A DNA stretch of 64,000 nt from Candidatus Omnitrophota bacterium (GCA_003598135.1 QZKA01000024.1:619-64618); one strand, 5' to 3'. Positions 47,278-64,000 are shown, counted from the stretch's first letter. The notes: generated by a model not told the origin, from the sequence alone. Made by a program: numbers and translations.

Positions 47278-48621
47278 CTATATCAGTGCTTTAAGCACTT
47301 TAGTGACCCTACTATTATTGGGAAGATTTTTTATATCCTTTACCGTAAAATGGCGTTTTGAAAAGTTATTTTGGATTTCTTCCAGGTCTTCTACAGTAAG
47401 TTCATCATTTGCGAATGGCATAAGCGACGGGGCTAATTCTTCTAAATCTCTGCCCTTTATGAGATGCCTATAATTAACATACTCTTCGGTGCCAGGTATA
47501 GGGGTATAAGGTAGTACCACCGGCAAACATCCTAATTTCCAAACGTCTATCAAAGTAAGGAGAATCGATTTCAAACTTTGTTCTGGCAGACCTATCAGAA
47601 CAAATAACCAAATGTCGTTTTCATAACGCATGGTTTTATGGCAAAAATAACCTTCTTCCTTAAATAATTTTACCACCTTCTCAAAATAAGAAAGTTTTAG
47701 TTTCTTATGAAACCTGTGCTGCAAATTAGAATCGCTGCTTTCTAAAGCCAAGCCTATATAGCTAACTCCGCTTAAACGCAATTTTCTAATAATCTCAGGA
47801 TAAATTAAACGTGGATCGAAGCCCTCGGGGATCTGGATAGAAAGATCTAGTTCCAATTCTATAATCCTATCCAGTAATTTTTCAAAATACTGTTTTGCAT
47901 CCTGTAAAATATTTGACTCCCAAAATACTATTTTCCTAATGCCGCTACTAACGCGCAACTGCAACTCAGCGATAACATCTCCTATCGGACGGTGCGTAAT
48001 AATTTTACCTTCGACCTTCGGGACTGCACAGTAGCTGCAGTTGTTACAACAACCGCGAGTGGTTTTTATTATTGCGTATTTATATTCCCTTTCTTTCATT
48101 AACTCCATAGCGGGCGGCAAATCGCTGGCTCCTTTAAATTGTCCGATAATAACATTATCTGCCTTTGATCTCTTGGCATGTTCGGGAGCAAGAGTTGGAT
48201 AAATTCCTCCTATGGTAACAGGGATATCAGGATATAACTTTTTACAGATCTCTACTACCTTGTGGACGCCCTCCCAATAAAAAGTCAAGGATGAACCTAC
48301 GTAGATTTCATCGGGTTTCTTAATTTTTTTTAGCTCAGTATTAAAAAACGAATAAGGCTTACCAATATGATAACGCTTTTTAAATATTTTCTTACTCCCC
48401 ATACCACATCTTTTTTTATCAACATACCTACCTGGCTCCTTATAAGGATGGTCTTCTCCTATATATTTATACATCCCCTCTAGAAAATCAAAAAAGCATA
48501 CCCGGCAACCTTGATTTTTTAAAAAAGCCCCGATTTTTAATAATCCTGTGTTGTAGTCAAAGTTTGCGTTTGGGCGACTATCTAACAAAGGGGGATTTAT
48601 TAGTAGTATTTCTTTAGTCAT
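47278..48621 (-). CDS. B12-binding-domain radical SAM protein (class B)
   Basis: N-terminal cobalamin-binding Rossmann domain (ILLINPPL...) and a radical-SAM core (TTRGCCNNCSYCAVP). Confidence 0.8.
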   Translation of the reverse strand: MTKEILLINPPLLDSRPNANFDYNTGLLKIGAFLKNQGCRVCFFDFLEGMYKYIGEDHPYKEPGRYVDKKRCGMGSKKIFKKRYHIGKPYSFFNTELKKIKKPDEIYVGSSLTFYWEGVHKVVEICKKLYPDIPVTIGGIYPTLAPEHAKRSKADNVIIGQFKGASDLPPAMELMKEREYKYAIIKTTRGCCNNCSYCAVPKVEGKIITHRPIGDVIAELQLRVSSGIRKIVFWESNILQDAKQYFEKLLDRIIELELDLSIQIPEGFDPRLIYPEIIRKLRLSGVSYIGLALESSDSNLQHRFHKKLKLSYFEKVVKLFKEEGYFCHKTMRYENDIWLFVLIGLPEQSLKSILLTLIDVWKLGCLPVVLPYTPIPGTEEYVNYRHLIKGRDLEELAPSLMPFANDELTVEDLEEIQNNFSKRHFTVKDIKNLPNNSRVTKVLKALI

Positions 48622-48648
48622 AGGAATGTTAGGCCTTACAGCCTTACT

Positions 48649-49629
48649 TTATAACGGTTTTATTTCAGAGTCTCCGTAATGAAACACATAATTTAAAAAT
48701 ACTCCTGGGCAATATTGCTCAATTTGACAATGGAAACATTTGCTTAATTTGTGGTACGAAAAAACCCTCGTGTACAAAAATATTGCATCAGATATATCGT
48801 TCTCTATTTTACATAATAAATTCGTTTTATAATTTTTGCTGCAAGAGACTGTCTTGGAAAATTTTTCTGGTGACAGCTCTTTTAAAACACACAAAGGAAA
48901 ACCGACAAAATTAAAATTAGAATTTCTAAATTTCCTTATTATTTCTTTATAAGAAGGTATTAAGCTTTTATAGGGAAGCTTGGCCTTATATTTAAGATGC
49001 AGTATCGAAAGGGGTACTTTTGTTACCTTAGCGCATAGACTAATTATTTTATCTACATGGTTTATATTTTGCTTAAGTAACAATGTGTGCAGATAAATTT
49101 TTACCCCTGGATGTGACCTTAGATTATCCACTCCGCTTCTCAGTAAATTATAACTCTTGTGATTAGCAACTATCTGATTATGCAATTTATTTATACCGTA
49201 TACCGGAATGGATATATTCCTTAATCCGTATCTTACTAGTTTTTCTGTAAATGACGAATTCGAAAAAAATTCTCCGGAAGATATGGTTTCAATTGTCTTA
49301 AAACCATACTTATTTGCAGATTCTAACAAATCCAAAATCCCCGGATAACGCAATGGTTCATTAGCGGCAAGAAGCAAGTGAGATATGTTATTTTTTCTAT
49401 TTAAATGCATCGAATTTTTTAGGCTGGCAAGAATTGAATCGTTATAACCTTTCTTAGGATCATCTTTATGAAAACAAAAAATGCAATAATTACAACATCC
49501 GGTCTGGAAACTTATAATATTATACTTCTTATTACACCCGAGCCCCTTTAATAAATGAAGCTGTTTATCGAATGGGGCAGTAAAAATACTTAAAAGGCCT
49601 TTATTATCTTGGTTAAAATCTAAATACAT
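48649..49629 (-). CDS. radical SAM protein, ~300-aa paralogous family member (copy 1)
   Basis: CCNYCIFC is a CxxxCxxC motif. The C-terminus reads CFHCQIEQYCPG...GDSEIKPL. Closest relative is the second domain of the 694-aa fusion (LHTLLLKQN). Confidence 0.75.
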   Translation of the reverse strand: MYLDFNQDNKGLLSIFTAPFDKQLHLLKGLGCNKKYNIISFQTGCCNYCIFCFHKDDPKKGYNDSILASLKNSMHLNRKNNISHLLLAANEPLRYPGILDLLESANKYGFKTIETISSGEFFSNSSFTEKLVRYGLRNISIPVYGINKLHNQIVANHKSYNLLRSGVDNLRSHPGVKIYLHTLLLKQNINHVDKIISLCAKVTKVPLSILHLKYKAKLPYKSLIPSYKEIIRKFRNSNFNFVGFPLCVLKELSPEKFSKTVSCSKNYKTNLLCKIENDISDAIFLYTRVFSYHKLSKCFHCQIEQYCPGVFLNYVFHYGDSEIKPL

Positions 49630-49641
49630 ACATTCTAATTT

Positions 49642-50784
49642 TTAAAAATACGTTTGACTGATTTTTCCAAAAATTAACAAATTTATTATAGGAAATTTAA
49701 CTAATACCGTAATGAAGGCGCCTAAAAATATAAAGGGCGCCAACGGCAAAGTTTTATATATCTCTATTGTTTCCGATGAACGATTTCTCAATAAGTCCGT
49801 TCTAACTTCATTAATTTGATCTTGAGTTAAGCCATCAGGATAGAGTTTACCAATTTTTTTGAAACCAAATTTCAAAATTGACTCATCAGTAAGCTGTAAC
49901 CTATCCGGCAAGTTTGCAACCGGCACCTCTTCTATTATATCATTTCTTAAAGAAAGCAATTTCCGGAGAGAATAAAAAAGCACAAAAAAGTAAGTAAAAT
50001 TCTTTAAGTACACAATAAAACTAAGAATCGCACTTGATCCGAAAATAATGAAAGAATTAACTAGAAGGCAAATCATTAAAAAACTTGAAAAAACAAGAAT
50101 GGATACATGTTTCAATAGGGTTTTATTGAATGTTCTATACAACAAAAGCGGCATTAAATAGCTCAACATTGACAAAGAAGAATCCAATTTTAGTTGAGGA
50201 AAATTCATATTAAGCACAACCAACTGAATCAACATAATAAAAGTAAGGTAACTCAACACAAACCTTAAACATTTAAATATTCTCTTTTTGATATATTTAA
50301 AAATATTTTTTAAGGAAAACAAAAAAACGTCATAAAAACTGCGAGAGCCGCTCTGTAATACCTTATTTTTAATAAAAACAACTACTTTCGTGAAATAAAC
50401 AGCTAACAAGAAAATAAAAAGCAACACAAAGACATTTGTTAAGAAAACAATTATGGGATAAAGCGGCAAAATTTTCTGAAAGGGATTTACTTTTAAAAGC
50501 ACAAAAAATGAAAACATAATAAAAAGCTTAGAATCTCCGGCAGCCCAGAATCCAAAATACCAGATTAAAAAGGCGACCAAAGTTATTAACGCGGCGTTTA
50601 TAATCACAAAAGAAAGAAAATGGAAACTCAAATACTTGAACAACAGCAAATACATAAAACTTATAAATGAAAAAAATATGCCTACGATTACCAAATTGTT
50701 CTTAATTTTTGAATATCTGATGTCGCTATACGAACTAAACAAACCGATGATCAAAAATATTAAAAAATAAATAAAATTTTCCAT
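49642..50784 (-). CDS. polytopic membrane protein with a split prepilin-peptidase (A24/TadV-like) aspartyl-protease signature
   Basis: SYSDIRYSKIKNN parallels the D(L/I)RxxxIPN motif, WAAGDSKLFIM parallels GxGDVKL, and the C-terminal TLPLAPFIFLGAF parallels PFGPFLALGA. A ~200-aa multi-TM insertion sits between the motifs. Confidence 0.55.
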   Translation of the reverse strand: MENFIYFLIFLIIGLFSSYSDIRYSKIKNNLVIVGIFFSFISFMYLLLFKYLSFHFLSFVIINAALITLVAFLIWYFGFWAAGDSKLFIMFSFFVLLKVNPFQKILPLYPIIVFLTNVFVLLFIFLLAVYFTKVVVFIKNKVLQSGSRSFYDVFLFSLKNIFKYIKKRIFKCLRFVLSYLTFIMLIQLVVLNMNFPQLKLDSSLSMLSYLMPLLLYRTFNKTLLKHVSILVFSSFLMICLLVNSFIIFGSSAILSFIVYLKNFTYFFVLFYSLRKLLSLRNDIIEEVPVANLPDRLQLTDESILKFGFKKIGKLYPDGLTQDQINEVRTDLLRNRSSETIEIYKTLPLAPFIFLGAFITVLVKFPIINLLIFGKISQTYF

Positions 50785-50829
50785 TTAAGATTTAATGTTT
50801 CTTGCAGCTAATTTTGCGTTTCGGTCCGG

Positions 50830-51807
50830 TTAACGAGTAGCATGAATTCTTCTTATAATTACATCGGGATTACAAAAAATGGGATAGAGTTCTTTGCTTC
50901 CGTAAATATTGATATATTCTTTTTGGATTCCCGCACAAATTCTATTGGCCGAACAATGGGCGCAACACTCAACTTTAATTCTAAATTTCGTAGGCTTCAC
51001 CTGCCTTAATTTATCCGTCCTTTTTTTACTTATAAATGAACAAATATAAAGTTCATTCTTGACTATTTTCCTGGTTTCAGACGAAAGCTCTTCAAAGCCT
51101 TGCATATAACATAATGGAACTCGCTCAATTCTCATTGTCCTCTCATGCGTTCTCAGCAATTCAACAGTTTTCTTCAACTCCAGCTCGATATCTGTATACC
51201 TTGCTACAATCCATTGGTTATTTACTACCCTACTATTAATTTCACCATCCGCCTTCCCCGGGTCGAGATTATTATAAACAAAATGTTTTATACCAGGAAA
51301 AGCCTTAATGAAAAATTTCGCAGTGTTAGACAGATTTTTACAATTAAGCGTATTTATAGTACTATTGAGCGCCACATGGAATCCTACTCTCAATGAGTTC
51401 TCTAGCCCTTTTATTGCCTTTTTAAAATGGCCTTTCTTTTGAGATAATTTGTCTGCGATGCTGCTGCTATCGGAATGAATCGAAATATTTATATCCCTTA
51501 AACCAGCCTTAAAAAGTTTTTTAGTTAAGCGAGGGTCCTCCAGTTTGCAACCATTCGTTATGATCCTGCTTGCAATGCCGTTTTTTTGAATAAATGATAT
51601 TACTTCCGGCAAAAAGCTTACCAATGTCGGTTCTCCGCCAGTAAGAATAATTTCAGTGATGTTCTGTTTTTTTAAAGCGATAATTTTGTTTTTTATTTCA
51701 CCTAAGCCATAATTTTTTTTAAATTGGGGGTTAGAACAAAATAAACATTCATTATTACATTCCCGGGTAATCTGAAGATAAGCTGCTTTTCTAGACCTTG
51801 GGCTCAT
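50830..51807 (-). CDS. radical SAM protein, paralogous family member (copy 2)
   Basis: CNNECLFC, GGEPTL, ISIHSDS, ERVPLCYMQGFEE and the C-terminal CCAHCSANRICAG. Confidence 0.75.
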   Translation of the reverse strand: MSPRSRKAAYLQITRECNNECLFCSNPQFKKNYGLGEIKNKIIALKKQNITEIILTGGEPTLVSFLPEVISFIQKNGIASRIITNGCKLEDPRLTKKLFKAGLRDINISIHSDSSSIADKLSQKKGHFKKAIKGLENSLRVGFHVALNSTINTLNCKNLSNTAKFFIKAFPGIKHFVYNNLDPGKADGEINSRVVNNQWIVARYTDIELELKKTVELLRTHERTMRIERVPLCYMQGFEELSSETRKIVKNELYICSFISKKRTDKLRQVKPTKFRIKVECCAHCSANRICAGIQKEYINIYGSKELYPIFCNPDVIIRRIHATR

Positions 51808-51819
51808 CGGAGGCGTAGT

Positions 51820-52746
51820 TTATTTAAAAGTAAATAATAAAGGTTTCTCGTTTTTGATTTTACCCACCTCTTTATCGTTAAGAAAAACGGAAATGGTTTT
51901 TTTACCAAGAATAATGTTATTTCCGTTCTCAAGTCTATTATACGCACAAAGATAATTTCGATCTTTCTCAAAGCCGTGGTTTTGATTTATGCTTTTATAT
52001 ATGAAATTATAACGGGCGCTTCCTGCTGACATATCAACACTATTAAAAAAAAATGTTTTTCCGTTATTCAAAACAAGTACAGGAAGCTTTAAAAAAAACT
52101 CAATGTATTCCCGAATTTCAGTTTCCGAAACACAAATCGAATTTAGGACTTTTTGCGCATACTTTTTTGACTCATTACACGTATAAGAACATGGAAAATG
52201 TGAAATTAGCGCCCCAAAACGAGAGCCGGGGAATGCGTGTAAATTGTTTAAGTAAAATGAAGGCGTTCCTTTGGTATTCTCAAATGCACTAGATATTAAT
52301 TTTATTGATGGAGAATTTGTATTTTGTTTAAAGAAATTTATGCAGCATTGTGGGTATCCTAATAAATGGCCTATGGTTTCATCAACCATAGAGAAAAACT
52401 TTCTTCCTGACGAATATATACCTTTTATTCTTTTATCTTCCTGCTCTTTTAAAGCCTTAGCAAGTTTTGGTAATTTCGATGCGTAAAATATTATTTGGCC
52501 GCCATGGCTATGTAAAGGTGCCGCCCTTAACATCTTTTTTGTTCTTTTGATTTTATAATCGGAATGGGTTATATATATTCCGTTTTTCTCATAAATTTTT
52601 TTTATTCCTTTAAATTGCCCATGGTCGATTATGCTTCTCTGTGTAGGCTTAATACCATTTCTCAATGCCAAATACTCAAAATTAATATTTTCAATAACTT
52701 TGATGGCTTTCAATATATGTTGCGTATCGATTTTAACTCTACTCAT
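51820..52746 (-). CDS. hypothetical Cys-motif protein (308 aa) embedded in the rSAM cluster
   Basis: Motifs HLLGYPQCC and HFPCSYTC. No recognisable family. Confidence 0.4.
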   Translation of the reverse strand: MSRVKIDTQHILKAIKVIENINFEYLALRNGIKPTQRSIIDHGQFKGIKKIYEKNGIYITHSDYKIKRTKKMLRAAPLHSHGGQIIFYASKLPKLAKALKEQEDKRIKGIYSSGRKFFSMVDETIGHLLGYPQCCINFFKQNTNSPSIKLISSAFENTKGTPSFYLNNLHAFPGSRFGALISHFPCSYTCNESKKYAQKVLNSICVSETEIREYIEFFLKLPVLVLNNGKTFFFNSVDMSAGSARYNFIYKSINQNHGFEKDRNYLCAYNRLENGNNIILGKKTISVFLNDKEVGKIKNEKPLLFTFK

Positions 52747-53663
52747 TTGATCGGGGCGAGCTCAAGCCAGCCTATCTTTTCAGCATACGTTACATCAATC
52801 CCGCTGCATAATTTGTAGTGCCTGCAAGGTGAGCAAATCGGTGTTTTTGTAGTAGCTGAACTACGGTGGAGCATTGTCTTTTCTTTATTTTTAATATAGT
52901 ACGGTGTTTCTGGAATCCCTACATAATTCTCGTAACCACCCATTAGGCAAAATGGCATAGTTTCTATCTTAATGGGCAGCTCTTTTTTGTCGCCATACGA
53001 ACGCTTTAGTTTGTCAATCGCTTTTTTAAATTCTTTCGCTAACTCTGAGTATGAAACAAAGAGCTGATTAAAAAATTTATCTGCATTTCCTGCATACATG
53101 AGGGTGTTCAGTATTATACAATCGATTTTTTCGAAAGCCAGCAACATCTTAATAAGAAAATAAATATTTTTATAATTTAGCTTGGTAAGCGTAGAACATG
53201 TATTTACCTTTAACCGAAAAATATCTTTTAAGGCAACTATATTCTTCAATCCTTGGACGGTTTGCGCATATCCATTGGGAGTACGAGTTAAAGCTTCATG
53301 AATTTTTTTTGAGCTTCCATGGATAGAAATATTGACTTCTGTTAAGCCTGCTTTGACGAGCTCATCGACATAGCTACCGTAACTCAGCAATCTTCCGTTT
53401 GTTTGAAGGCAAATGTGTTTATATCCTTTTTGTTTCGCTAATTTAATAAAATTAGTTAAATTTTTATTAAGCGTGGGTTCGCATGTAGTAAAAAGCATTG
53501 AGTCAAGCGATTCGATCTTTTTACTTTGTTTTAAAAACCCTTCGGGTGTAAGCCAAGCAGCGTTTTTAAAAGACAGGTCCGGTTTGCGATCAGAACAAAA
53601 AACACAATTATTATTACAGGCAGCGCTTGTAAATATGGTAAGCCGGTCATTATCCATACGCAC
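52743..53663 (-). CDS. radical SAM protein, paralogous family member (copy 3)
   Basis: CNNNCVFC, ISIHGSSKKIHEALT, ETMPFCLMGGYEN and CSPCRHYKLCSG. Confidence 0.75.
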   Translation of the reverse strand: MRMDNDRLTIFTSAACNNNCVFCSDRKPDLSFKNAAWLTPEGFLKQSKKIESLDSMLFTTCEPTLNKNLTNFIKLAKQKGYKHICLQTNGRLLSYGSYVDELVKAGLTEVNISIHGSSKKIHEALTRTPNGYAQTVQGLKNIVALKDIFRLKVNTCSTLTKLNYKNIYFLIKMLLAFEKIDCIILNTLMYAGNADKFFNQLFVSYSELAKEFKKAIDKLKRSYGDKKELPIKIETMPFCLMGGYENYVGIPETPYYIKNKEKTMLHRSSATTKTPICSPCRHYKLCSGIDVTYAEKIGWLELAPIK

Positions 53664-53698
53664 CCTATGTTACTATGCTTCTACTTTCTCAGCCGTAT

Positions 53699-55783: not shown

Positions 55784-55793
55784 AATGGCGTTA

Positions 55794-56720: not shown

Positions 56721-57649
56721 ATAGCAAACTCCTTGTCTTTAAATTCAAGGTAATATCTTTTAAATATCCCGCCGCAGTTACTACTCATAGAACAGCTTTC
56801 GCATACATGGATCTTAATCCTATTACGAGTCGGATAACAACTCAAAGTTTCCTTTAAAAATATATTTTTAGAACTTTTCCGCTGCTCAACTGTTATTCTA
56901 GGGGACCAGTGAAAATCATTAGTGTAAAGTTCATAACCCTTTAGCACGCAAAGAGGAAGCCCAAAAAATCTAATAATTAGAGCTTTTTTATTCGCATATT
57001 CAACTAATCGAGGGACTGCCGTTTTTATTTCTTTTAAAGGAACAACTAATTTTTTAAAATTAGCCAATCCATTTCCTTCCGGGGCGAAGTTAGAAAAAAG
57101 TATTTGTTTGACTTTTTTAAAATTGCTGACCAAATCGATTACCTTCTCAAGTGAGCTAACATTATATTTAGTAATAACTGTGTTAATGAACAAAAAAATG
57201 TCCCCCTTTGACCTTTCAATATTTTCTAATGCGTTCATACATCTGCTGAAGCTTTCTCTGTTGGCGGTGTGAAGATTATGAAGCGTTCCGCTATGACCGT
57301 GCAGAGAAAAACAAATTTCATCAACATAAAAAAGAGTTTTATCGCAAAACCTTTTTAAGGAAAATAAGCCTCCGTTAGAACTACAATACACTGTATACAT
57401 TAACTGCTTTGCGGATTGGATTATTTCTACAAAACTCGGGTGAAAAGTCGGCTCTCCCCCTGTTAATGTAATGTGGTTTAAGCCTTTTTCGGCAAAATAT
57501 TTTAATTTATTTTGTATTATATTGAAGTCAACAAAATGGTTATTACGTTTATTTAATTGGCCTGCCTCGGAACAAAAAATGCAGTTATTGACACATTTAT
57601 ACGATATGTGAAATTCTAATCTCTTTGCCTTAGATCTATTTCCCGTCAT
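56717..57649 (-). CDS. radical SAM protein, paralogous family member (copy 5)
   Basis: CVNNCIFC, TGGEPTF, FSLHGHSGTLHNL, GLPLCVLKGYEL and CESCSMSSNCGG. Confidence 0.75.
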   Translation of the reverse strand: MTGNRSKAKRLEFHISYKCVNNCIFCSEAGQLNKRNNHFVDFNIIQNKLKYFAEKGLNHITLTGGEPTFHPSFVEIIQSAKQLMYTVYCSSNGGLFSLKRFCDKTLFYVDEICFSLHGHSGTLHNLHTANRESFSRCMNALENIERSKGDIFLFINTVITKYNVSSLEKVIDLVSNFKKVKQILFSNFAPEGNGLANFKKLVVPLKEIKTAVPRLVEYANKKALIIRFFGLPLCVLKGYELYTNDFHWSPRITVEQRKSSKNIFLKETLSCYPTRNRIKIHVCESCSMSSNCGGIFKRYYLEFKDKEFAI

Positions 57650-57651
57650 CT

Positions 57652-59070
57652 TTATCCATAAAGTAAGTAAGATAGTTGGAAGTCAATATTCCGGTATTCA
57701 TTCTTATTCTTATCAACTAATCCTGAATATCTAGCCAAAAAACGACCATCAAGAAAGCAATTTGAATAAATGTATCTTTCACATCTTGTTTTCGCAGATA
57801 ACGTAATAAAATTTCTGTCTTCTCCCACGGGGCACATTTTTTTTATTAACTTGAGTTCCCTTGGATATAGCTTTTCGGGTTCTTCATTGAATATTTTTTG
57901 AAACAAATTTTTATCAATTCTCCCTTCTTCCTGAATAGAGTTTATTATATTGAAACGCATCTCTAAATCCTTTGATAATTGGAACGCGAAGAGTTTAGGG
58001 AAAATATTTCGTTTGAGATTTCTTTCATAATCCGGATAGTGTAGGTCTTTTACGTAGTACATCTTTTTAAACGCATGTGAGATTGCCCCCCACCCTAATC
58101 CCAAAACCGAACTATTAAATTTATACATGTCAAAAAATTGTAAATTTTCTTTATTTGTACTGTAATCCTCCAACGCATAAGGATACGCACTGCTAATCAT
58201 CTGGTACGCTAAATCGAGCATCTTTTTACAGCGGATTACATCACTAAAGTTTAATGTAAGGCCGTTTTTAGTAAACCTTGTAAAAACATCTGGACAAAAA
58301 GAGTTAACGTGGATAGTATCTGGTTTCAGTTTTAAAATATTTTTTAACGAGATTTGGAACGATTCAATTGATTGATAAGGAACCCCTGCCATCAAATCAA
58401 CATTGATATGGCGTATCTTCAATTTTCTACAATTTTGATATAGCTGAAAAACTAATTTTGCATTTTGCGGCCTTTGGAGTTTCTTGAGGACATTTTTATC
58501 CAGCGATTGAACTCCGATAGTTACTTTGTTTACCCCATAATCCTTAAGTATTTTTACTTTCTCATAAGAGCACGTGTATGGGCTAAGTTCAACCATAAAT
58601 TGCTCTTTATTCTCCACATTATAATTTTCTGAAATCATGACCATGAGTCTTTTGAGATTGGCAGATGATAATATTGAAGGCGTACCGCCACCTATATAAA
58701 CGGTTTTTGCTTCCAATTTCTTTGGAAAATCCAATAATTTTATTTCTTTTTCCAGTGCATTAAGAAAGCGGGAATGTGACTGATCATTAGTCTGGGGGAA
58801 TGATAGGGTGTTACAATAAAAACACTTGCTGACACAAAATGGAATGTGGACATATATACCGAATCTATCGTGGCTACCCTTCTCTTTAAGGATGGATGTC
58901 GCAACAGATCGCCAAGATTTTTTTACTTCCTCTAGGCGTATTGATCTTCTTTGGAGTCTCAGTACCGAATACGGCGTTCCTAAGCCATAAAAAATCAAAT
59001 CCCTGGTTATGCACTTAAACAGCTCAAGCTTCTTATTAACTTCATTACTTAAAAGGGACAAGTTCGGCAT
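57652..59070 (-). CDS. HemN/HemW-like radical SAM protein (coproporphyrinogen-III-oxidase family)
   Basis: YVHIPFCVSKCFYC, GGGTPS and VTIGVQSLD. Confidence 0.75.
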   Translation of the reverse strand: MPNLSLLSNEVNKKLELFKCITRDLIFYGLGTPYSVLRLQRRSIRLEEVKKSWRSVATSILKEKGSHDRFGIYVHIPFCVSKCFYCNTLSFPQTNDQSHSRFLNALEKEIKLLDFPKKLEAKTVYIGGGTPSILSSANLKRLMVMISENYNVENKEQFMVELSPYTCSYEKVKILKDYGVNKVTIGVQSLDKNVLKKLQRPQNAKLVFQLYQNCRKLKIRHINVDLMAGVPYQSIESFQISLKNILKLKPDTIHVNSFCPDVFTRFTKNGLTLNFSDVIRCKKMLDLAYQMISSAYPYALEDYSTNKENLQFFDMYKFNSSVLGLGWGAISHAFKKMYYVKDLHYPDYERNLKRNIFPKLFAFQLSKDLEMRFNIINSIQEEGRIDKNLFQKIFNEEPEKLYPRELKLIKKMCPVGEDRNFITLSAKTRCERYIYSNCFLDGRFLARYSGLVDKNKNEYRNIDFQLSYLLYG

Positions 59071-59971
59071 CCGAATATTTTAAGAAATATTTTTCGTAAA
59101 CGCCTCCGCATATGCTATTCTTTGAGCATTTTTTACACTTGCGGGTTTTTATTCTTCCGATATCGATTTTAAAATTGTTTTCGATATATTTCCCCGGCTC
59201 ATTCCATAATCGTATTTTTCCATTATGATCTTTCTGATTATCAATTTTGAAGGGTTCCCATAAATCATAGGAATACTGATATCTATCTCCTAAAATACAC
59301 ATAGGAATACCGGAAAACCTGATTTTAATATTTTTGGACTCGCAAAAGTTTATTGCTTTTATTACGTGTGGGGAAAGAACAGAAAATTTAGGAAAAATCT
59401 CGTAAAATTTTCGGCTCCCCTCTCCTGTAGGTACAATAGACATACATTGATATTCGTTTATTCCAAAATTATGAATCAACTCAGCTATGTTGGTTAAAAA
59501 TTTATAATTAAGACTGGTTATCGCAGTGGTTGCTTGAAGTCTGCCCTTATAATATTTCTTCAGATTTTTCATTCCTTGAAAGACAGATTTAAAAGCTGCC
59601 GGGTTACGGGTATTAATTGAATGAATTTTATTATTATGCCCGTGTATAGAAATCATAATTTCGTCGAGATAAGGCAATGTCTTGATGCAAAACTCATAAG
59701 AGCTGAACATAATTGCATTTGAAATAATAAATGTATTATAATGTAATGCCTTTGACAATTTTAATATTTCGGGAAAATGAGAATGTAATGTTGGCTCCCC
59801 TCCTACAAAGTGTACAAGATTTGCCCCTTTAGACCTTTCAGCTACTAATATATTCTTAATTTTCTCAAATGAGAGCTCAGAGCCATCAAGGTTATTTCTT
59901 TCGCTGCAAAAAATACATCTATTACAGCATTTTTTTACAATAAAAAGGTCAATTCGTCTGGTGTGTACCAT
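59045..59971 (-). CDS. radical SAM protein, paralogous family member (copy 6)
   Basis: CNRCIFC, VGGEPTL, ISIHGHNNKIHS, GIPMCILGDRYQ and CKKCSKNSICGG. Confidence 0.75.
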   Translation of the reverse strand: MVHTRRIDLFIVKKCCNRCIFCSERNNLDGSELSFEKIKNILVAERSKGANLVHFVGGEPTLHSHFPEILKLSKALHYNTFIISNAIMFSSYEFCIKTLPYLDEIMISIHGHNNKIHSINTRNPAAFKSVFQGMKNLKKYYKGRLQATTAITSLNYKFLTNIAELIHNFGINEYQCMSIVPTGEGSRKFYEIFPKFSVLSPHVIKAINFCESKNIKIRFSGIPMCILGDRYQYSYDLWEPFKIDNQKDHNGKIRLWNEPGKYIENNFKIDIGRIKTRKCKKCSKNSICGGVYEKYFLKYSDAELVPFK

Positions 59972-60905
59972 ATTCGTAAGGAAGAACTGAACAATACATA
60001 CTAATCTCTTTGGCCCTGGTAGAATTTAGAAAGGTCAATCCCAGGGCAGTAGGATAAATACAACTGTGAAATGTCGCATAAAGATTATTTAATCCGTAGA
60101 TAAATTTATTTATACTCAAAAGGGGAACTTTCAACTTCTTGATATCTGACCATCTTTCTTTCGGATTAAAATTGCACTGGAATTCTCTGGTTTCATAAAT
60201 TAAATAATTCTTCAGAAAAGCTATCGTTCCTGGTTTTTTTAATTTGACCGCAGCAAGGTAAAATACATTTTTCTTTGGTGAATTTTTGAAAAATACGCTA
60301 AATTTAGATTTGAAGTCGTTATGCAAAAAGCTAAATTTGTTTAATTCTTGTAGCGCATGATACCTAAAATAAAGCTTAATTGACATTTGATTACTATTCG
60401 GGCAAAGCACTAATGCAAGCGCACAGATTTCATATCGTAAATATAAACCGACCATATTCGGATCGTAGCCCGATATCAAACACAACTTATACAATATATC
60501 GTTTTTCAAAAAAGGGCCGCATTCAACTTCAATTTTTAAAGTGGGGGCCCTGTCTGATTCAGCCCACTCAAACCCCAAAGTGACTGGAAAAGCTTTAATT
60601 ACATAGATTGCTTTTTCCGCTTGTTGTCGCAATTCCCCATCGTAACACAATCGTATTATTGAACGTATTTTATTGAGAAATTCGACTCTCTCCCCTGAAT
60701 CATTAATACTAAATCTCAAAAGATGTTTAGGCCTTCTATTAATTTTAAAAGAAAAATCAAACTTAAAAAAATCAAGACTACGCATTTGGTAATCATCAAA
60801 GAGGATTTTGATAATACATGGGAAATTTTTCTTTTCATAAATATTATTTTCTCTTGCAATTTGTTCTATAATATTTCTGTAACAAGTAAGGATGTTAGTG
60901 CTCAT
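59949..60905 (-). CDS. hypothetical protein (318 aa) homologous to the C-terminal domain of the 624-aa rSAM fusion
   Basis: KFDFSFKINRRPKHLLRFSINDSGERVEF aligns with KFDFSISASDSNARSLRFSYNDFGEKKEF at residues ~330-360 of ORF 61951..63825. Confidence 0.45.
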   Translation of the reverse strand: MSTNILTCYRNIIEQIARENNIYEKKNFPCIIKILFDDYQMRSLDFFKFDFSFKINRRPKHLLRFSINDSGERVEFLNKIRSIIRLCYDGELRQQAEKAIYVIKAFPVTLGFEWAESDRAPTLKIEVECGPFLKNDILYKLCLISGYDPNMVGLYLRYEICALALVLCPNSNQMSIKLYFRYHALQELNKFSFLHNDFKSKFSVFFKNSPKKNVFYLAAVKLKKPGTIAFLKNYLIYETREFQCNFNPKERWSDIKKLKVPLLSINKFIYGLNNLYATFHSCIYPTALGLTFLNSTRAKEISMYCSVLPYEYGTHQTN

Positions 60906-60913
60906 TTAAAAGA

Positions 60914-61957
60914 TTAAAAACTGCGATTGGCTAATGCGTTATTTAAATATGCAACAAAATTTGACATTAATTGGCCCGCTAAGATAGTATTATTCAGATA
61001 TTTGGTAACATTATTTTCACGGAAAATTATTTCCATTGCTTCTTCATTAGTAAGCCGCTTTTTCTCAAACGCATCCATACTCTCTTTTATTTCGTTGATA
61101 TTCCCCAGGATGAACTTCCTTTTCCTTTCATAGTTTTGAATTAAATAACTGATACACGCAGAGTAGATGTTTCCGTCAAAATCCACGGATATCTCTGTAT
61201 TCATCCTAAATGGCGGGAACCATTCTGTCAGGTTTTGCAACCGAATATCATTTTTTAGTCTTAGTTTTAAATACAGACTCCTTAATTTAATCAGATTCCT
61301 TGCCAAAACTATTCTATCGTTGTTTGACCATTTTACTCCACAGGCAATCATTATGAATATATTTCTAAAGCCTAAATTTACTAAATGGCTGAAATTGTCA
61401 ACAATTCTGCCCACTGTCATGGGAGAAACTACCATACTGACCTGGCAATCTGTATTATATTTAAAAATTATCGGAAGGTTGCGGACAATAAGAGAATACG
61501 AGTCGGGTAAACCATTCTTTTGCGGCCTATTTAACCTCTGCGCTCCAGGGCCTCCATCCAGACTTAGCTCAAGAAGTACATTGTTTTCTTTGAAGAACCT
61601 TACTTTTTCTTCATTCAACAATACTCCGTTTGTTGTAAGAATAGGGGTTAATTTTCTTTTTTTGGCATTTGCTACTTTGTTTGCATACATTATTCCTTTC
61701 TTTAAAATCTTGAAAGGCAGCATTAGTGGTTCGCCGCCGAAAAAATGCAATTGTAAAACGTCTGCTGAGGAAGTCATCAAAAAATCGACAGATTTAAGCA
61801 AAACGTGCTCGGACATATATCTTTTTGAACTTTGCGATACAAAGCAGTATTTGCACTTCAAACAACAGTCATGGGTTAATAACAGTAACAGTCTAGTTGT
61901 TCTAAACTCAGTCCGCTCCCCTATTAAATTGTTTCCTTTTTTTTCTGAAATCACCAT
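60914..61957 (-). CDS. anSME/SPASM-like radical SAM core lacking the C-terminal Cys-rich domain
   Basis: LLLLLTHDCCLKCKYCF, FFGGEPLM and ELSLDG. There are no C-terminal cysteine clusters. Confidence 0.65.
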   Translation of the reverse strand: MVISEKKGNNLIGERTEFRTTRLLLLLTHDCCLKCKYCFVSQSSKRYMSEHVLLKSVDFLMTSSADVLQLHFFGGEPLMLPFKILKKGIMYANKVANAKKRKLTPILTTNGVLLNEEKVRFFKENNVLLELSLDGGPGAQRLNRPQKNGLPDSYSLIVRNLPIIFKYNTDCQVSMVVSPMTVGRIVDNFSHLVNLGFRNIFIMIACGVKWSNNDRIVLARNLIKLRSLYLKLRLKNDIRLQNLTEWFPPFRMNTEISVDFDGNIYSACISYLIQNYERKRKFILGNINEIKESMDAFEKKRLTNEEAMEIIFRENNVTKYLNNTILAGQLMSNFVAYLNNALANRSF

Positions 61958-63825
61958 TTAACCGTAAAATAGACGTCAGCCTTTTGGGAACCCCTTGCAT
62001 GATCAATGGCCGCGATCACTGGAAATACTTTTCTTCCTTTTAATGCGCATAAACTGCAGATCTCTGAAAAAACTTCATTCGCCGCTTTGTCATTTGAATT
62101 AATCAATATGTTCCTAATTTCAGGCGTAACCTGATTAGAATCTTTGATTTGGCTAATTTCATAGATTTTATATAATTTGATTGAATTAATACAGCCGTTC
62201 TCCTGGAACCTTTTAGTGATGTAATAAAATACCTTCAACTTAGATTCGCCCTTATTTAAAATTGATTTTAGAAGCTTTCTGGCCGCATTCAACCCATTCT
62301 TCCTTAAAAATTTTAAAAATGTTTTTTCGTTTACTTTTTTATGAATACAATATACTTTAAGGTTTATGTTTTTTTTGGGCAAAAAATCTACGCAAATCGC
62401 ACCAATAATAGCGCGAGAGTTAATTTGTAATTTCTTATAATCGATTTTCAATACCTTACAAATACGTTGCAGAAAAATCCTGATTTCTGATTGAGTAAAG
62501 GAATGAACCAATTCTTCAAAATATACTTTTATTTTTGGGTAATTTTCCTTGGAAAACCAAACCAAACCAATGGTCGTTTGTTGCTTATTGCCGAACGGGA
62601 TCATTACGCATAGCAGTTCATTTATTTGATTAATGGAGTAAGCATCGCCGAATAATTGAAAGATTTTCAATAATTTATTTTTGAACTCTTTTTTCTCCCC
62701 AAAATCATTATAGCTAAACCGTAAACTCCTTGCGTTACTATCGCTGGCTGAAATTGAAAAATCAAATTTTTGGTTATCTTTAAGCCATGATTCTTTAAAA
62801 TCCGTGAAAAGAATATTTGTTATTCTGTCAACTTTCTCTTTTAAAAACTTCAGGCCAAAGTGCTTAATTAACAAATTAGAAATATCTGTAAAAATAGAAA
62901 CGGTAGAAACACTGCCTTTGTTATTTAATACAAACCCTTTTCTAACGGGTTTAAATTCATCCCATCCGAATTTCTGCGGATACTCCCTCCAGGGTCCTTC
63001 ACACACTGCGTAGTACCGACATTTAGGACAATTTGTTGATTTACTTTTCCCTTCCTTTTTACGAACAAGCCCAAAATTTTCTATAACTCCATTTACATCG
63101 TATATCTTTGTTTCGGGCAAAATCCTCTCAGCAATATAATCCTCGTAGCCCCTCATGAAACAATAAGGAATTGCCTCGGTCATCACTCTCTTTCCAGCAG
63201 AAATGCCTTTTTCTAGTGCCATCTTGACAAACGGTTCAACCAGTGACATCCGGGGCACTATAGAATCAAAGTTATCTTTTGCGCTTCCTAAAGGGTGAGG
63301 GAATGCGAATTGGAACTGGTCAACCCCGAGCCTAATCAATAAATCTGCTATCGAGGGCAAATACGCAAAATTAGACTTGGTTATGACGGTATTGGTAATA
63401 ACCGTCTGCCCTAGTTTTTTTAAGTTTATTATCCCATCAACAGTTTGTTTAAAGCTACCCGGGGAGCTTGTGAGGTAATCGTGCATATGGGGGGTACTTC
63501 CGTGCAAAGCAGGAGAAAATTCATTGGCACCGCATTTAATCGCCTTTTTGCAAAATTCAGAATAAGAAAAAAAACGGCCATTAGATTGGATTTGAATTGT
63601 ATTGAAGTTCAATGCTTTGGCAAAAGCAACAAATTGAAAAAAGTCTTTATGTAAGGTAGGCTCTCCGCCGGTAAAGACTATATCGCGACAGCTTGTTCTC
63701 GCCTTCTCCATTTCATTTTTTATAATTCCGGTATCCCTGCTTCCGTATGCCTTGCGCTTGTCGCCCTGAACGCAAAATTTACAGAAGTTATTACAATTGA
63801 ATCCAATCTTTATATCGGCTTTCAT
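61951..63825 (-). CDS. radical SAM (family copy 7) fused to a ~300-aa C-terminal domain of unknown function
   Basis: CNNFCKFC, TGGEPTL, PALHGSTPHMHDYLT, EAIPYCFMRGYED and CPKCRYYAVCEG, followed by a domain paralogous to ORF 59949..60905. Confidence 0.75.
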   Translation of the reverse strand: MKADIKIGFNCNNFCKFCVQGDKRKAYGSRDTGIIKNEMEKARTSCRDIVFTGGEPTLHKDFFQFVAFAKALNFNTIQIQSNGRFFSYSEFCKKAIKCGANEFSPALHGSTPHMHDYLTSSPGSFKQTVDGIINLKKLGQTVITNTVITKSNFAYLPSIADLLIRLGVDQFQFAFPHPLGSAKDNFDSIVPRMSLVEPFVKMALEKGISAGKRVMTEAIPYCFMRGYEDYIAERILPETKIYDVNGVIENFGLVRKKEGKSKSTNCPKCRYYAVCEGPWREYPQKFGWDEFKPVRKGFVLNNKGSVSTVSIFTDISNLLIKHFGLKFLKEKVDRITNILFTDFKESWLKDNQKFDFSISASDSNARSLRFSYNDFGEKKEFKNKLLKIFQLFGDAYSINQINELLCVMIPFGNKQQTTIGLVWFSKENYPKIKVYFEELVHSFTQSEIRIFLQRICKVLKIDYKKLQINSRAIIGAICVDFLPKKNINLKVYCIHKKVNEKTFLKFLRKNGLNAARKLLKSILNKGESKLKVFYYITKRFQENGCINSIKLYKIYEISQIKDSNQVTPEIRNILINSNDKAANEVFSEICSLCALKGRKVFPVIAAIDHARGSQKADVYFTVKW

Positions 63826-64000
63826 CAGTTTAAAGAAGAAATGAACTCGGTAAGCTTATAATCTATATTAATCGTGGATTTTAAGACTCTGAAAGGAGTA
63901 CATTTTTCGACAATTTTACCGAGATCTGCCTGCATAATCAAGCGTTTTATTTTTTTTAAACTTCTAATTGAATTAACGTTTCCGAGTTTAAATTTTTTCG
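63826..64000 (-). CDS. 3' end of an upstream minus-strand gene in the same operon (partial, unknown function)
   Basis: The open frame ends ...KLTEFISSLN, and its stop overlaps the start of the following gene (atga). The gene begins beyond the window. Confidence 0.4.

What the first reader, a model, noticed from the sequence alone, without database searches (positions are those of the whole stretch)
47278..64000. AT-rich 17-kb operon of 12 radical SAM proteins (13 rSAM domains) with no substrate gene visible
From 47278 to the window edge, 14 tightly packed minus-strand genes have gaps of 0-45 nt or overlapping stop/start codons. They encode a B12-binding rSAM, eight members of one ~300-aa rSAM family (one of them duplicated into a two-domain protein), a HemN/HemW-like rSAM, an anSME-like rSAM core and an rSAM-DUF fusion. 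A modified prepilin-peptidase-like membrane protease and two unknown ~310-aa proteins are interleaved with them. Base composition drops sharply at ~47.2 kb relative to the housekeeping block, which suggests horizontal acquisition. This density and paralog diversity of rSAM enzymes has few precedents. Candidate roles are iterative modification of a ribosomal peptide such as a small Flp-pilin-like peptide, given the A24-like protease, or of a lipid or cofactor, given the B12-rSAM and HemN-like members. No precursor ORF fits in any intergenic gap, and the operon continues upstream past coordinate 64000, so the substrate gene is probably outside the window.
Basis: partly seen in the sequence, partly recalled or inferred. 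Interest (0 to 1): 0.92.

Follow-up and report, generated by a model that had tools for sequence, protein, structure and literature searches.

The report
Giant His-Xaa-Ser peptide maturation operon
This AT-rich block is the enzyme part of a greatly enlarged "His-Xaa-Ser" (Hxs) system, in which about 13 radical SAM enzymes, two prenyltransferase-fold proteins and a membrane protease probably remodel a small secreted peptide of Ser-His-Gly repeats encoded just beyond the window edge; only the four-gene version (an anti-phage system) has been studied.

Summary
The 14 tightly packed minus-strand genes (47278-63825, GC 0.34 vs 0.46) encode 11 complete radical SAM (rSAM) proteins with 12 CxxxCxxC motifs. 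The 3' end of a twelfth rSAM gene sits at the window edge.

The contig ends 231 nt upstream of the first complete gene. A Candidatus Omnitrophota MAG has the same genes in the same order (71-92% aa identity) and the same housekeeping flank. Its upstream part holds HxsD, an HxsD-like protein and HxsB, all above curated cut-offs, plus an 85-aa peptide ending GGHSSHGSHSSHGSHGQW.

The same architecture occurs in Schekmanbacteria and Elusimicrobiales MAGs and in dozens of metagenome contigs. The paralogs have cross-phylum orthologs.

So this is an expanded Hxs-type peptide maturation locus. It is a new variant of a known kind; I found no paper describing it. The low GC is shared by homologous loci at the same chromosomal site, so recent horizontal acquisition is not supported. 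The chemistry and biological role remain inferred.

The parts
63825..63998 (-). 3' end (57 codons plus stop) of a PapB-like, SPASM-less rSAM gene. The full protein is 309 aa in the MAG207 ortholog. Its stop codon overlaps the ATG of the next gene.
   Evidence: Searches give the translation ...KKFKLGNVNSIRS...TEFISSLN*. It matches the C-terminus of L002 6151-7080 and scores 83 bits with the HMM built from that protein.
61951..63825 (-). 624-aa fusion. The N-terminal part (~300 aa) is an HxsC-like rSAM, the most conserved paralog and the likely primary HxsC equivalent. The C-terminal part (~320 aa) is an ABBA prenyltransferase-fold domain.
   Evidence: Pfam Radical_SAM scores 71 bits. HxsC4 scores 166 bits and HxsC 108 bits, both below cut-off. 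Reciprocal-best orthologs in other phyla are 50-62% identical. The C-terminal domain is homologous to the 318-aa protein.
60914..61957 (-). 347-aa PapB/HxsB-like rSAM core. It has CxxxCxxC but none of the Cys-rich SPASM motifs.
   Evidence: PapB 146 bits (cut-off 340), HxsB 98.5 bits (cut-off 370). It is 92% identical to the MAG207 ortholog.
59949..60905 (-). 318-aa protein with the ABBA (PT-barrel) prenyltransferase fold. It matches no Pfam or NCBIfam family.
59045..59971 (-). 308-aa HxsC-like rSAM with a C-terminal CxxCx5CxG motif.
   Evidence: The ortholog in L005 is 38% identical.
57652..59070 (-). 472-aa HemN/HemW/STM4012-like rSAM, a candidate class C methyl or methylene transferase.
   Evidence: STM4012 family 169.5 bits (cut-off 380), HemN 158 bits (cut-off 325). 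It is 88% identical to the MAG207 ortholog. HemN-like genes recur in related loci.
56717..57649 (-). 310-aa HxsC-like rSAM.
   Evidence: Orthologs in four other loci are 37-43% identical.
55794..56720 (-). 308-aa HxsC-like rSAM.
   Evidence: Orthologs are 41-42% identical.
53699..55783 (-). 694-aa protein with two HxsC-like rSAM domains. It has 2 CxxxCxxC and 3 CxxCx5C motifs.
   Evidence: A 681-aa double-domain counterpart exists in Schekmanbacteria. Orthologs of domain 1 are 48-50% identical.
52743..53663 (-). 306-aa HxsC-like rSAM. Of all the paralogs it scores highest against the HxsC4 model.
   Evidence: NF038332 190.9 bits (cut-off 500).
51820..52746 (-). 308-aa DUF483 protein with a GYPQCC motif. 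Its role is unknown.
   Evidence: Pfam PF04467 scores 29 bits against a cut-off of 25. NCBIfam, PDB-sequence and PADLOC searches found nothing. It is 78% identical to the MAG207 ortholog. It is rare in the other loci.
50830..51807 (-). 325-aa HxsC-like rSAM.
   Evidence: HxsC 102 bits. Orthologs are 37-43% identical.
49642..50784 (-). 380-aa polytopic membrane protein. It is an A24 (prepilin-peptidase)-like aspartyl protease with an extra C-terminal region.
   Evidence: Pfam Peptidase_A24 scores 24.5 bits, below the 26.5 cut-off. The motifs 'S[YF]xDI[RK]xxKIKN' and '[WF][AS]AGDxKLF' are conserved in all 8 homologs, and every homolog lies next to HxsC-like rSAM genes. The AF2 model was too poor to use (pLDDT 47.5).
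48649..49629 (-). 326-aa divergent HxsC-like rSAM.
   Evidence: HxsC4 78 bits.
47278..48621 (-). 447-aa B12-binding-domain rSAM, a candidate cobalamin-dependent methyltransferase. It is the last gene of the operon.
   Evidence: Radical_SAM 48.7 bits. B12-binding scores 27.1 bits, below the 32.1 cut-off. The ortholog lies at the same end position in MAG207, followed by rpsU.

Best explanation
The block is the tailoring-enzyme part (about 16.7 kb of about 22 kb) of a greatly expanded His-Xaa-Ser (Hxs) maturation operon in an Omnitrophota-like bacterium.

By synteny with MAG207, the missing 5' part should encode:
- a secreted Cys-rich protein;
- HxsD and an HxsD-like protein;
- the SPASM rSAM HxsB;
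- a second secreted protein;
- an 80-90-aa precursor, made of a conserved N-terminal leader (LPxIKKDLKxFLxSEEGKIxKK..KxG), a hydrophobic signal-like segment, and a core ending in (Ser-His-Xaa)n-SHGSHGQW.

Inferred mechanism. In the cytoplasm the leader-bound precursor is worked on by HxsB and by a primary HxsC-like enzyme (the N-terminal half of the 624-aa protein). By analogy with the canonical HxsC-HxsD complex, these probably act together with HxsD or the HxsD-like protein. The eight further HxsC-like domains each carry a radical SAM cluster and a C-terminal auxiliary-cluster motif. They would perform site- or step-specific radical chemistry on the His/Ser triads; in the canonical system this is a +8 Da (+C -4H) change. 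The HemN-like and B12-dependent rSAMs would add one-carbon units. The two ABBA-fold proteins would alkylate (prenylate) an aromatic side chain, most plausibly the invariant C-terminal Trp or a His. The product is then exported, and the leader is removed either by signal peptidase at an AxA site or by the dedicated A24-like aspartyl protease after the conserved K-x-G.

Shown: gene content, homologies, fold, synteny and cross-phylum conservation. Inferred: the substrate for this particular genome, every chemical step, and the biological role.
For: Synteny and context:
- (1) The contig ends 231 nt upstream of the 624-aa gene, inside another rSAM gene.
- (2) MAG207 (GCA_040754255.1) has all 14 genes in the same order at 71-92% aa identity. 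Its downstream flank is the same: rpsU, TIM-barrel protein, Memo, DUF1844, DHQase II, M24 peptidase, EF-P.
- (3) Upstream genes in that locus pass curated cut-offs: HxsD TIGR03976 59.9 (cut-off 50), HxsD-like NF038315 63 (41), HxsB TIGR03978 481 (370). An 85-aa peptide ends GGHSSHGSHSSHGSHGQW; its best hits are HxsA3 and HxsA4, both below cut-off.

Homology of the parts:
- (4) HxsC4 or HxsC is the best NCBIfam hit for seven of the eight HxsC-like proteins and is among the top four for the eighth.
- (5) A profile of the 9 domains aligns with canonical Aeromonas HxsC at hhalign probability 99.05%, E 2e-18, over 260 columns. The alignment includes the P.C and CxxCx5CxG auxiliary-cluster motifs.
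- (7) Both A24 Asp motifs are conserved in the membrane protein.

Conservation elsewhere:
- (8) The same architecture occurs in Schekmanbacteria GWA2_38_11 (L093), in another Omnitrophota MAG (L005) and in an Elusimicrobiales MAG (L006). It consists of HxsD, HxsB, a precursor ending SHGSHGQW, a PapB-like rSAM, HxsC-like paralogs, an ABBA protein, a HemN-like rSAM, a double HxsC-like protein and an A24-like protein. The HxsB-led multi-rSAM pattern also occurs in many metagenome contigs.
- (9) Seven of the 9 HxsC-like domains have reciprocal-best orthologs in other phyla that are more similar (35-62%) than any paralog in the window (22-34%). This points to old, specialised enzymes.

Published background:
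- (10) In the canonical system HxsB, HxsC and HxsD mature the HxS-repeat protein HxsA, with a +8 Da change on SHRSS and N-terminal processing (PMC13128918).
Against: - No precursor, HxsB or HxsD has been seen for this genome itself. The link is by synteny with a relative that is 71-92% identical.
- None of the HxsC-like proteins reaches the curated HxsC (267.9) or HxsC4 (500) cut-offs.
- The MAG207 precursor is below the HxsA3 and HxsA4 cut-offs.
- The precursors lack the peptidoglycan-binding domain of canonical HxsA.
- The A24 assignment is sub-threshold and its model failed.
- No chemistry was or could be tested.
Confidence: 0.85

Rival explanations
1. Rival about function: the locus is an anti-phage defence system like the canonical four-gene HXS. 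The matured HxS-repeat product would sit in the periplasm and block phage DNA entry. The extra enzymes would only elaborate the effector.
For: The core (HxsD, HxsB, HxsC-like enzymes and an HxS-repeat secreted substrate) is homologous to the system shown to block phage DNA entry (PMC13128918). The composition is island-like. Gene content varies between loci.
Against: The locus keeps a fixed chromosomal position between housekeeping genes in diverged Omnitrophota lineages. The architecture is conserved across three phyla. The precursors have no peptidoglycan-binding domain. No other defence genes lie nearby. The enzyme investment is very large for a peptide core of about 38 aa.
Confidence: 0.25
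2. One reading: the substrate is a Flp or type IV pilin-like peptide. The A24-like protease would cleave it after Gly, and the mature hydrophobic N-terminus would assemble into a fibre or anchor in the membrane, displaying the modified His-rich tail.
For: Both catalytic Asp motifs are conserved in the A24-like protein. It recurs at the ends of HxsC-like gene runs in at least four lineages. The precursors have a nearly invariant K-x-G followed by about 18 hydrophobic residues.
Against: The site lacks the Glu+5 (type IV pilin) and EY (Flp) signatures that I recall from established knowledge; these were not tested here. The leader before the Gly is about 35 aa and highly conserved, as RiPP leaders are. 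The hydrophobic segment is followed by typical AxA signal-peptidase sites. No pilus assembly genes lie in the locus. Many related loci show no A24-like gene in the sequence available.
Confidence: 0.2
3. The block makes or modifies a lipid or cofactor. This reading takes the B12-rSAM as ladderane- or hopanoid-like, the HemN-like enzyme as haem-related, and the prenyltransferase fold as acting on a small molecule, not on a peptide.
For: The best NCBIfam hit of the B12-rSAM is the ladderane-lipid family TIGR04072 (59.6 bits). The HemN-like protein hits coproporphyrinogen oxidase models. ABBA enzymes often act on small aromatic molecules.
Against: Those hits are far below their cut-offs (59.6 vs 360; 158 vs 325). 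The operon is contiguous with HxsD, HxsB and a precursor in every complete homologous locus. Ten of the 12 rSAM domains are closest to peptide or protein maturases. No lipid or tetrapyrrole pathway genes are present.
Confidence: 0.03
4. Most HxsC-like copies are redundant or decaying tandem duplicates, so the apparent complexity is not functional.
For: Nine domains of one family lie in a single operon.
Against: All nine keep CxxxCxxC, GGEP-type motifs and the C-terminal CxxCx5CxG. The paralogs are only 22-34% identical to each other, yet they have 35-62% identical reciprocal-best orthologs in other phyla. Orthologs in MAG207 are full length at 75-91% identity.
Confidence: 0.04

Closest known systems
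Canonical HXS (His-Xaa-Ser) system, hxsD-hxsB-hxsC-hxsA. My recollection is that it was first defined in silico by Haft and Basu in 2011. It was characterised as an anti-phage system by Li et al. 2026 (Nat Commun 17:3910, PMC13128918).
   Same: In the syntenic locus HxsD and HxsB pass the curated models. The rSAM paralogs are homologous to HxsC over the whole domain, including the second-cluster motif. The substrate is a secreted protein with tandem His-Xaa-Ser triads.
   Different: - There are 13 rSAM proteins (14 domains) in the full locus instead of 2.
- It adds two ABBA-fold domains, an A24-like protease, DUF483, HemN-like, B12-dependent and PapB-like rSAMs, and a second HxsD-like protein.
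- The substrate is an 80-125-aa peptide with a long conserved leader and C-terminal (SHx)n-GQW. Canonical HxsA is a roughly 190-215-aa protein with a peptidoglycan-binding domain.
- It is found in Omnitrophota, Schekmanbacteria and Elusimicrobiales, whereas 99.7% of canonical systems are in Pseudomonadota.
- The paper reports that more than 99.8% of systems have just four proteins.
NCBIfam rare Hxs variants: HxsA3 (NF038309), HxsA4 (NF038313), HxsC4 (NF038332) and HxsD-like (NF038315).
   Same: These are the best-scoring curated models for the precursor, for most of the HxsC-like paralogs and for the 68-aa protein. NCBI names some Omnitrophota homologs of the precursor HxsA4.
   Different: Only the HxsD-like model is passed. 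The precursor scores 51.3 against HxsA3 (cut-off 65) and 33.7 against HxsA4 (cut-off 55). The best HxsC4 score is 190.9 against a cut-off of 500. No paper in the searched library mentions these names.
ABBA (PT-barrel) aromatic prenyltransferases, including the RiPP enzymes PagF and PatF (cyanobactins), CymD, DMATS, DciF (Arg) and FunA (His).
   Different: Sequence identity to the structural matches is 5-15%. There is no Pfam or NCBIfam hit. One copy is fused behind an rSAM domain. The donor, the acceptor and even catalytic competence are untested.
Peptidase family A24 (prepilin peptidases PilD, TadV/CpaA, FlaK).
   Same: It is a polytopic membrane protein. It has a first Asp in 'SDIRYSKIKN' and a second in a GxGD-like 'AAGDSKLF'. 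The substrates have Gly followed by a hydrophobic helix.
   Different: The Pfam score is below threshold. It has an extra conserved region of about 250 aa (motif LYPDGL). It is not linked to any pilus or secretion genes and occurs only next to HxsC-like rSAMs.
Multi-rSAM RiPP clusters with SPASM maturases (PapB ranthipeptide, SCIFF, PqqE).
   Same: The 347-aa and 309-aa proteins and HxsB belong to this broad clade. The logic is the same: a leader peptide plus a core.
   Different: The two PapB-like proteins lack the SPASM cysteines. Fourteen rSAM domains for a core of about 38 residues exceeds any characterised RiPP pathway that I know of (my own knowledge).

Membership tests
Canonical HXS system | HxsB: SPASM rSAM passing TIGR03978 | tested here: inconclusive
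   This is met in the syntenic MAG207 locus (481 bits, cut-off 370). The gene lies beyond the window and contig end, so it was not seen for this genome. The window's own 347-aa PapB/HxsB-like protein scores only 98.5 bits.
Canonical HXS system | HxsC: rSAM passing TIGR03977 (cut-off 267.9) | tested here: not met
   The best whole-protein scores are 147.6 (694 aa, two domains) and 107.8 (624 aa). Homology itself is clear: hhalign gives 99.05% probability against Aeromonas HxsC.
Canonical HXS system | HxsD: small protein passing TIGR03976 | tested here: inconclusive
   This is met in MAG207 (59.9 bits, cut-off 50), which also has an HxsD-like protein (63 bits, cut-off 41). Neither gene is within the window.
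Canonical HXS system | HxsA: signal peptide, tandem His-Xaa-Ser repeats and a peptidoglycan-binding domain | tested here: not met
   The MAG207 precursor and about 40 relatives have the repeats and a signal-like segment. They have no further domain and a different layout.
Canonical HXS system | Four-gene organisation hxsD-B-C-A | tested here: not met
   The locus has about 21 genes with the precursor in the middle.
Canonical HXS system | Confers phage resistance by blocking DNA entry | not testable with these tools
   This needs phage challenge of a host that expresses the operon.
NCBIfam HxsA4/HxsC4-type variant | Precursor passes NF038313 (55) or NF038309 (65); an rSAM passes NF038332 (500) | tested here: not met
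   The precursor scores 33.7 and 51.3. The best rSAM score is 190.9. The paralogs of L005 and L093 also fail.
Radical SAM superfamily | CxxxCxxC motif and Pfam PF04055 above the gathering score | tested here: met
   There are 11 proteins with 12 motifs, and all PF04055 scores (44-100 bits) exceed the 29.5 cut-off.
ABBA prenyltransferases | PT-barrel fold of five alpha-alpha-beta-beta repeats | tested here: met
ABBA prenyltransferases | Binds a prenyl diphosphate and transfers it to an aromatic acceptor | not testable with these tools
   There is only indirect support: family-invariant K48, R64, K124, K177, K232, Y179, Y304 and E72 on the barrel strands.
Peptidase A24 | Pfam PF01478 above the gathering score (26.5) | tested here: not met
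   The score is 24.5 bits.
Peptidase A24 | Two catalytic Asp in transmembrane segments, the second in a GxGD-type motif | tested here: met
   D21 in SDIRYSKIKN and D84 in AAGDSKLF are conserved in all 8 homologs. The assignment is by motif only, because the structure model was unusable.
HemN / class C rSAM | Passes the HemN, HemW or STM4012 equivalog cut-offs | tested here: not met
   Scores are 169.5 (cut-off 380), 158.4 (325) and 144.8 (205). It is family-like but not an equivalog.
B12-dependent rSAM | Pfam B12-binding domain above its cut-off, plus an rSAM domain | tested here: inconclusive
   B12-binding scores 27.1 against a cut-off of 32.1. Radical_SAM scores 48.7 and passes.

The most novel reading that the evidence does not exclude
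This would be a conserved, multi-phylum pathway that uses about 14 radical SAM domains, prenyltransferase-fold enzymes and a dedicated intramembrane protease. It would turn a genetically encoded (Ser-His-Gly)n peptide into a densely cross-linked and alkylated secreted product. That product would be a new RiPP class, with chemistry well beyond the single +8 Da change of canonical HXS and possibly a role other than phage defence, for example metal binding or cell-surface function in ultra-small anaerobes.
Probability: 0.45. Interest if true: 0.88.

Novelty: new variant of a known kind. Interest (0 to 1): 0.78.

Why it matters
The four-gene HXS system has only recently been shown to be an anti-phage defence, and the structure of its +8 Da modification is still unsolved. 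This expanded form has nine specialised HxsC-like domains, one-carbon-transfer rSAMs, ABBA-fold proteins and its own protease. It is conserved across Omnitrophota, Schekmanbacteria and Elusimicrobiales.

- It offers a natural series of related enzymes for working out what HxsC-type enzymes do to His and Ser residues.
- It points to a probably new class of heavily modified ribosomal peptide from uncultivated phyla.
- It has an unusually high ratio of radical enzymes to substrate residues.
- The ABBA-fold family (59 clusters among 1.84 billion representatives) and the A24-like family are uncharacterised: neither passes a curated family cut-off, and no paper describing them was found.

Tried and rejected
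- A 37-aa ORF just upstream of the 624-aa gene looked at first like a precursor. It is the C-terminus of a longer SPASM-like rSAM gene that runs off the contig.
- No (HxS)n or (SHx)n peptide is encoded anywhere in the window in any of the six frames.
- I tried to extend the contig. The record is only 64,674 bp and ends 231 nt upstream. The 98%-identical contig L003 adds only about 600 nt. L011 belongs to a different lineage, at 32% identity. The metagenome scan with MAG207 HxsB found 149 relatives, none above 53% identical, so this population's own upstream region was not recovered.
- The AF2 model of the A24-like protein was too poor to search with (pLDDT 47.5). PDB sequence searches for the A24-like and DUF483 proteins gave nothing.
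- PADLOC gave only generic viperin-type rSAM hits.
- The literature search for DUF483 was swamped by DUF483x names. No paper mentions HxsA3, HxsA4 or HxsC4.
The narrower alignment A1 worked.
- I tested whether ABBA genes go with GQW-ending precursors. All 4 locus types with ABBA genes have GQW-ending precursors, and 3 loci with other endings have no ABBA gene. But 3 GQW loci show no ABBA gene in the 8-9 kb available, so the result is only suggestive.
- Recent horizontal transfer was rejected as the explanation for the low GC.

Full report
**Observation.** The region 47278-63825 holds 14 minus-strand ORFs with gaps of -26 to +45 nt. GC is 0.342 in the block and 0.459 in the rest of the window, and it is lower at all codon positions. 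Pfam finds Radical_SAM above its cut-off in 11 of the 14 proteins, with two stretches in the 694-aa protein. A motif scan finds 12 CxxxCxxC motifs in those 11 proteins. A twelfth rSAM gene is present only as its last 57 codons at 63825-63998. Terminator-like sites are no more frequent than in shuffled sequence (7 vs 11.9), and none lies in an intergenic gap on the coding strand. This is consistent with a single operon.

**Where the window ends.** The contig is JGI Ga0104761_1000182 (64,674 bp). It stops 231 nt upstream of the 624-aa gene. A 37-aa ORF there, which I first took for a precursor, is the tail of a longer gene (NGDIYPSNAFF...LGNV, a SPASM-like C-terminus) that runs off the contig. 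No HxS or SHx repeat peptide is encoded anywhere in the window.

**Family assignments inside the window.**
- *HxsC-like family.* This comprises eight proteins and nine domains, including the N-terminal half of the 624-aa protein. HxsC4 (NF038332) or HxsC (TIGR03977) is the best NCBIfam hit for seven of the eight and is among the top four for the eighth. All scores are far below the cut-offs.
  - All nine domains share CxxxCxxC, a GGEP motif and a C-terminal CxxCx5CxG. Eight of the nine also have an upstream P.C.
  - A profile of the nine aligns with a canonical, PGAP-annotated HxsC from an Aeromonas salmonicida plasmid. hhalign gives probability 99.05% and E 2e-18 over 260 columns, including the auxiliary-cluster cysteines.
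  - The published HxsC likewise has a second cluster, whose CxxC contributes to activity.
- *Other rSAMs.* The 347-aa protein is a PapB/HxsB-like core without SPASM cysteines. The 472-aa protein is HemN/STM4012-like. The 447-aa protein is a B12-domain rSAM. All three are below equivalog cut-offs.
- *DUF483.* The 308-aa protein at 51820-52746 is DUF483 (29 bits, cut-off 25). Nothing more could be learned about it.
- *A24-like protease.* The 380-aa membrane protein scores 24.5 bits for Peptidase_A24, against a cut-off of 26.5. All eight homologs I could collect keep 'S[YF]xDI[RK]xxKIKN' and '[WF][AS]AGDxKLF', which correspond to the two catalytic Asp motifs of the family. All of them lie beside HxsC-like rSAM genes. 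Its AF2 model was unusable.

**The two "unknown" domains.** The 318-aa protein and the C-terminal 320 aa of the 624-aa protein are homologous.
- The family is tiny. A word-indexed search of 5.8 billion proteins found 3 homologs. A full HMM search of 1.84 billion representatives found 59 clusters, several fused behind a domain of about 300 aa.
- An AF2 model (pTM 0.75, pLDDT 68) shows five alpha-alpha-beta-beta units.
- Across 38 family members the invariant or near-invariant residues are K48, D50, S52, R64, E72, K124, E128, K177, Y179, K232 and Y304. They lie on the predicted barrel strands. From my knowledge of these enzymes, this is where ABBA prenyltransferases bind the diphosphate. Activity itself is untested.

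**Related loci give the missing half.** The 318-aa protein led to a Candidatus Omnitrophota MAG (MAG207, GCA_040754255.1, contig JBFMDA010000002.1).
- All 14 genes are present in the same order at 71-92% aa identity.
- The downstream housekeeping flank is identical: rpsU, a TIM-barrel protein, Memo, DUF1844, DHQase II, M24 peptidase, EF-P, BCCP.
- Upstream of the 624-aa ortholog it encodes, in order:
  - a secreted Cys-rich 198-aa protein;
  - HxsD (TIGR03976, 59.9 bits, cut-off 50);
  - an HxsD-like protein (NF038315, 63 bits, cut-off 41);
  - HxsB (TIGR03978, 481 bits, cut-off 370);
  - a secreted 187-aa protein;
  - an 85-aa peptide ending GGHSSHGSHSSHGSHGQW (best hits HxsA3 at 51.3 and HxsA4 at 33.7, both below cut-off);
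  - the 309-aa PapB-like rSAM, whose C-terminus matches the window-edge fragment.
- The full locus therefore has 13 rSAM proteins (14 domains) in about 22 kb.

**A family of expanded Hxs loci.**
- *Precursors.* The precursor has about 40 relatives of 76-136 aa. They share a conserved leader (LPxIKKDLKxFLxSEEGKIxKK..KxG) and a hydrophobic segment that is often followed by AxA. All of the aligned relatives end in (SHx)n followed by Trp (SHGSHG[QS]W, or ...QGGWC in two). NCBI names some of them HxsA4.
- *MAG loci.* Their loci in another Omnitrophota MAG (L005) and in an Elusimicrobiales MAG (L006) carry HxsD, HxsB, the precursor, 5 or more HxsC-like genes, HemN-like and B12-dependent rSAMs, and an ABBA-like gene.
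- *Genome scan.* A scan of 185,579 species genomes with the ABBA alignment found only MAG207 and Candidatus Schekmanbacteria GWA2_38_11. The Schekmanbacteria locus has nearly the same order: HxsD, HxsB, an 87-aa precursor ending ...SHGSHGQW, a PapB-like rSAM, an HxsC-like rSAM, ABBA, a HemN-like rSAM, four HxsC-like rSAMs, a 681-aa double HxsC-like protein, another HxsC-like rSAM, and an A24-like protein.
- *Metagenome scan.* A scan with MAG207 HxsB found 149 relatives. The longer contigs show hxsD, hxsD-like, hxsB and a precursor followed by 3-10 HxsC-like genes with HemN-like, PapB-like and B12 genes. Some also carry A24-like or DUF483 genes. In those contigs the precursors range up to about 550 aa with about 50 SHx repeats, and some are fused to a 330-aa domain.
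- *Ancient paralogs.* Seven of the nine HxsC-like domains in the window have reciprocal-best orthologs in other lineages at 35-62% identity. Paralogs within the window are only 22-34% identical. The paralogs are therefore ancient and individually conserved, which argues for distinct roles.

**Composition.** The block is also low-GC relative to its flanks in MAG207 (0.36-0.38 vs 0.44-0.50), in L005 and in the Schekmanbacteria locus. It occupies the same site in MAG207. L005 shares the upstream rsmE-mtaB flank with MAG207. The AT-richness is thus a long-standing property of the locus. An ancient transfer from a low-GC lineage is possible. A recent acquisition is not indicated.

**What is known.** The canonical HXS system (hxsD-B-C-A) was recently shown to be an anti-phage defence.
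- HxsB, HxsC and HxsD are all needed for N-terminal processing of HxsA and for a +8 Da (+C -4H) change on an SHRSS motif.
- HxsC binds HxsD.
- Mature HxsA acts in the periplasm.
- 99.7% of systems are in Pseudomonadota, and more than 99.8% have just four proteins (PMC13128918).
- I found no paper that mentions HxsA3, HxsA4 or HxsC4, or a multi-rSAM Hxs locus.

**Mechanism proposed (inferred).**
1. The leader-bearing precursor is recognised in the cytoplasm, probably through HxsD and the HxsD-like protein.
2. HxsB and the primary HxsC-like enzyme start the chemistry on the His/Ser triads.
3. The other specialised HxsC-like domains act on particular triads or on successive intermediates.
4. The HemN-like and B12-dependent enzymes add one-carbon units.
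5. The ABBA-fold proteins alkylate the invariant C-terminal Trp or a His.
6. The product is exported, with leader removal at AxA or by the A24-like protease after K-x-G.

The biological role could be periplasmic phage defence, as in the canonical system. It could also be something else, such as metal binding. The fixed chromosomal position, the lack of a peptidoglycan-binding domain and the size of the pathway make simple equivalence with canonical HXS uncertain.

**Verdict.** The finding is real and unusual. It is best filed as a new, greatly expanded variant of the Hxs system rather than as something without relatives. The lipid/cofactor idea and the recent-HGT idea are not supported.

Noticed in passing
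window 47014-47175 (-): A 53-aa ribosomal protein S21 gene (rpsU) lies in the apparent 264-nt gap just below the cluster. A promoter-like site (TTGACT-17-TATAGT, with TG) lies at 47238-47210. The same gene sits at the same position in MAG207.
   Followed up: partly
window 35425-35495 (-): A single tRNA gene (Rfam RF00005, 66.6 bits) is the only Rfam match in the window at gathering threshold.
   Followed up: no
window 60914-61957, 57652-59070, 53699-55783 (L001 gene calls): The JGI gene calls for this contig shorten three rSAM genes: 287 vs 347 aa, 360 vs 472 aa and 602 vs 694 aa. The MAG207 orthologs support the longer forms.
   Followed up: partly
window 61167-61961 (+): A 264-aa ORF runs antisense to the 347-aa rSAM gene. 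No evidence supports it, so it is probably spurious.
   Followed up: no
L002 2672-3268; L005 6525-7115; L006 6586-7979: The expanded Hxs loci begin with one or two secreted proteins of about 200-240 aa. They share 'T.YYP[SA]P[YF]G.Y' just after the signal peptide and a Cys-rich C-terminus (MICC/MICV). They match no known family.
   Followed up: partly
L017 11374-12966; L033 3787-5298; L080 3269-4903; L026 7919-8686: Some related loci encode HxS-repeat precursors of 250-550 aa with about 50 SHx triads. Several are fused to a conserved C-terminal domain of about 330 aa that starts CPFIILWNGKNFVIENNILP.
   Followed up: no
L009 119-2273; L010 104-2258: A distant homolog of the A24-like membrane protein (404 aa) lies directly after a 306-aa rSAM gene in another MAG (GCA_964361265.1). 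The pairing of protease and rSAM therefore recurs outside the large clusters.
   Followed up: partly
window 1-47013: The housekeeping block (EF-P, BCCP, biotin carboxylase, M24 peptidase, DHQase II, Memo and others) is collinear with Candidatus Omnitrophota MAG207. This places the window's organism in or near that lineage.
   Followed up: partly
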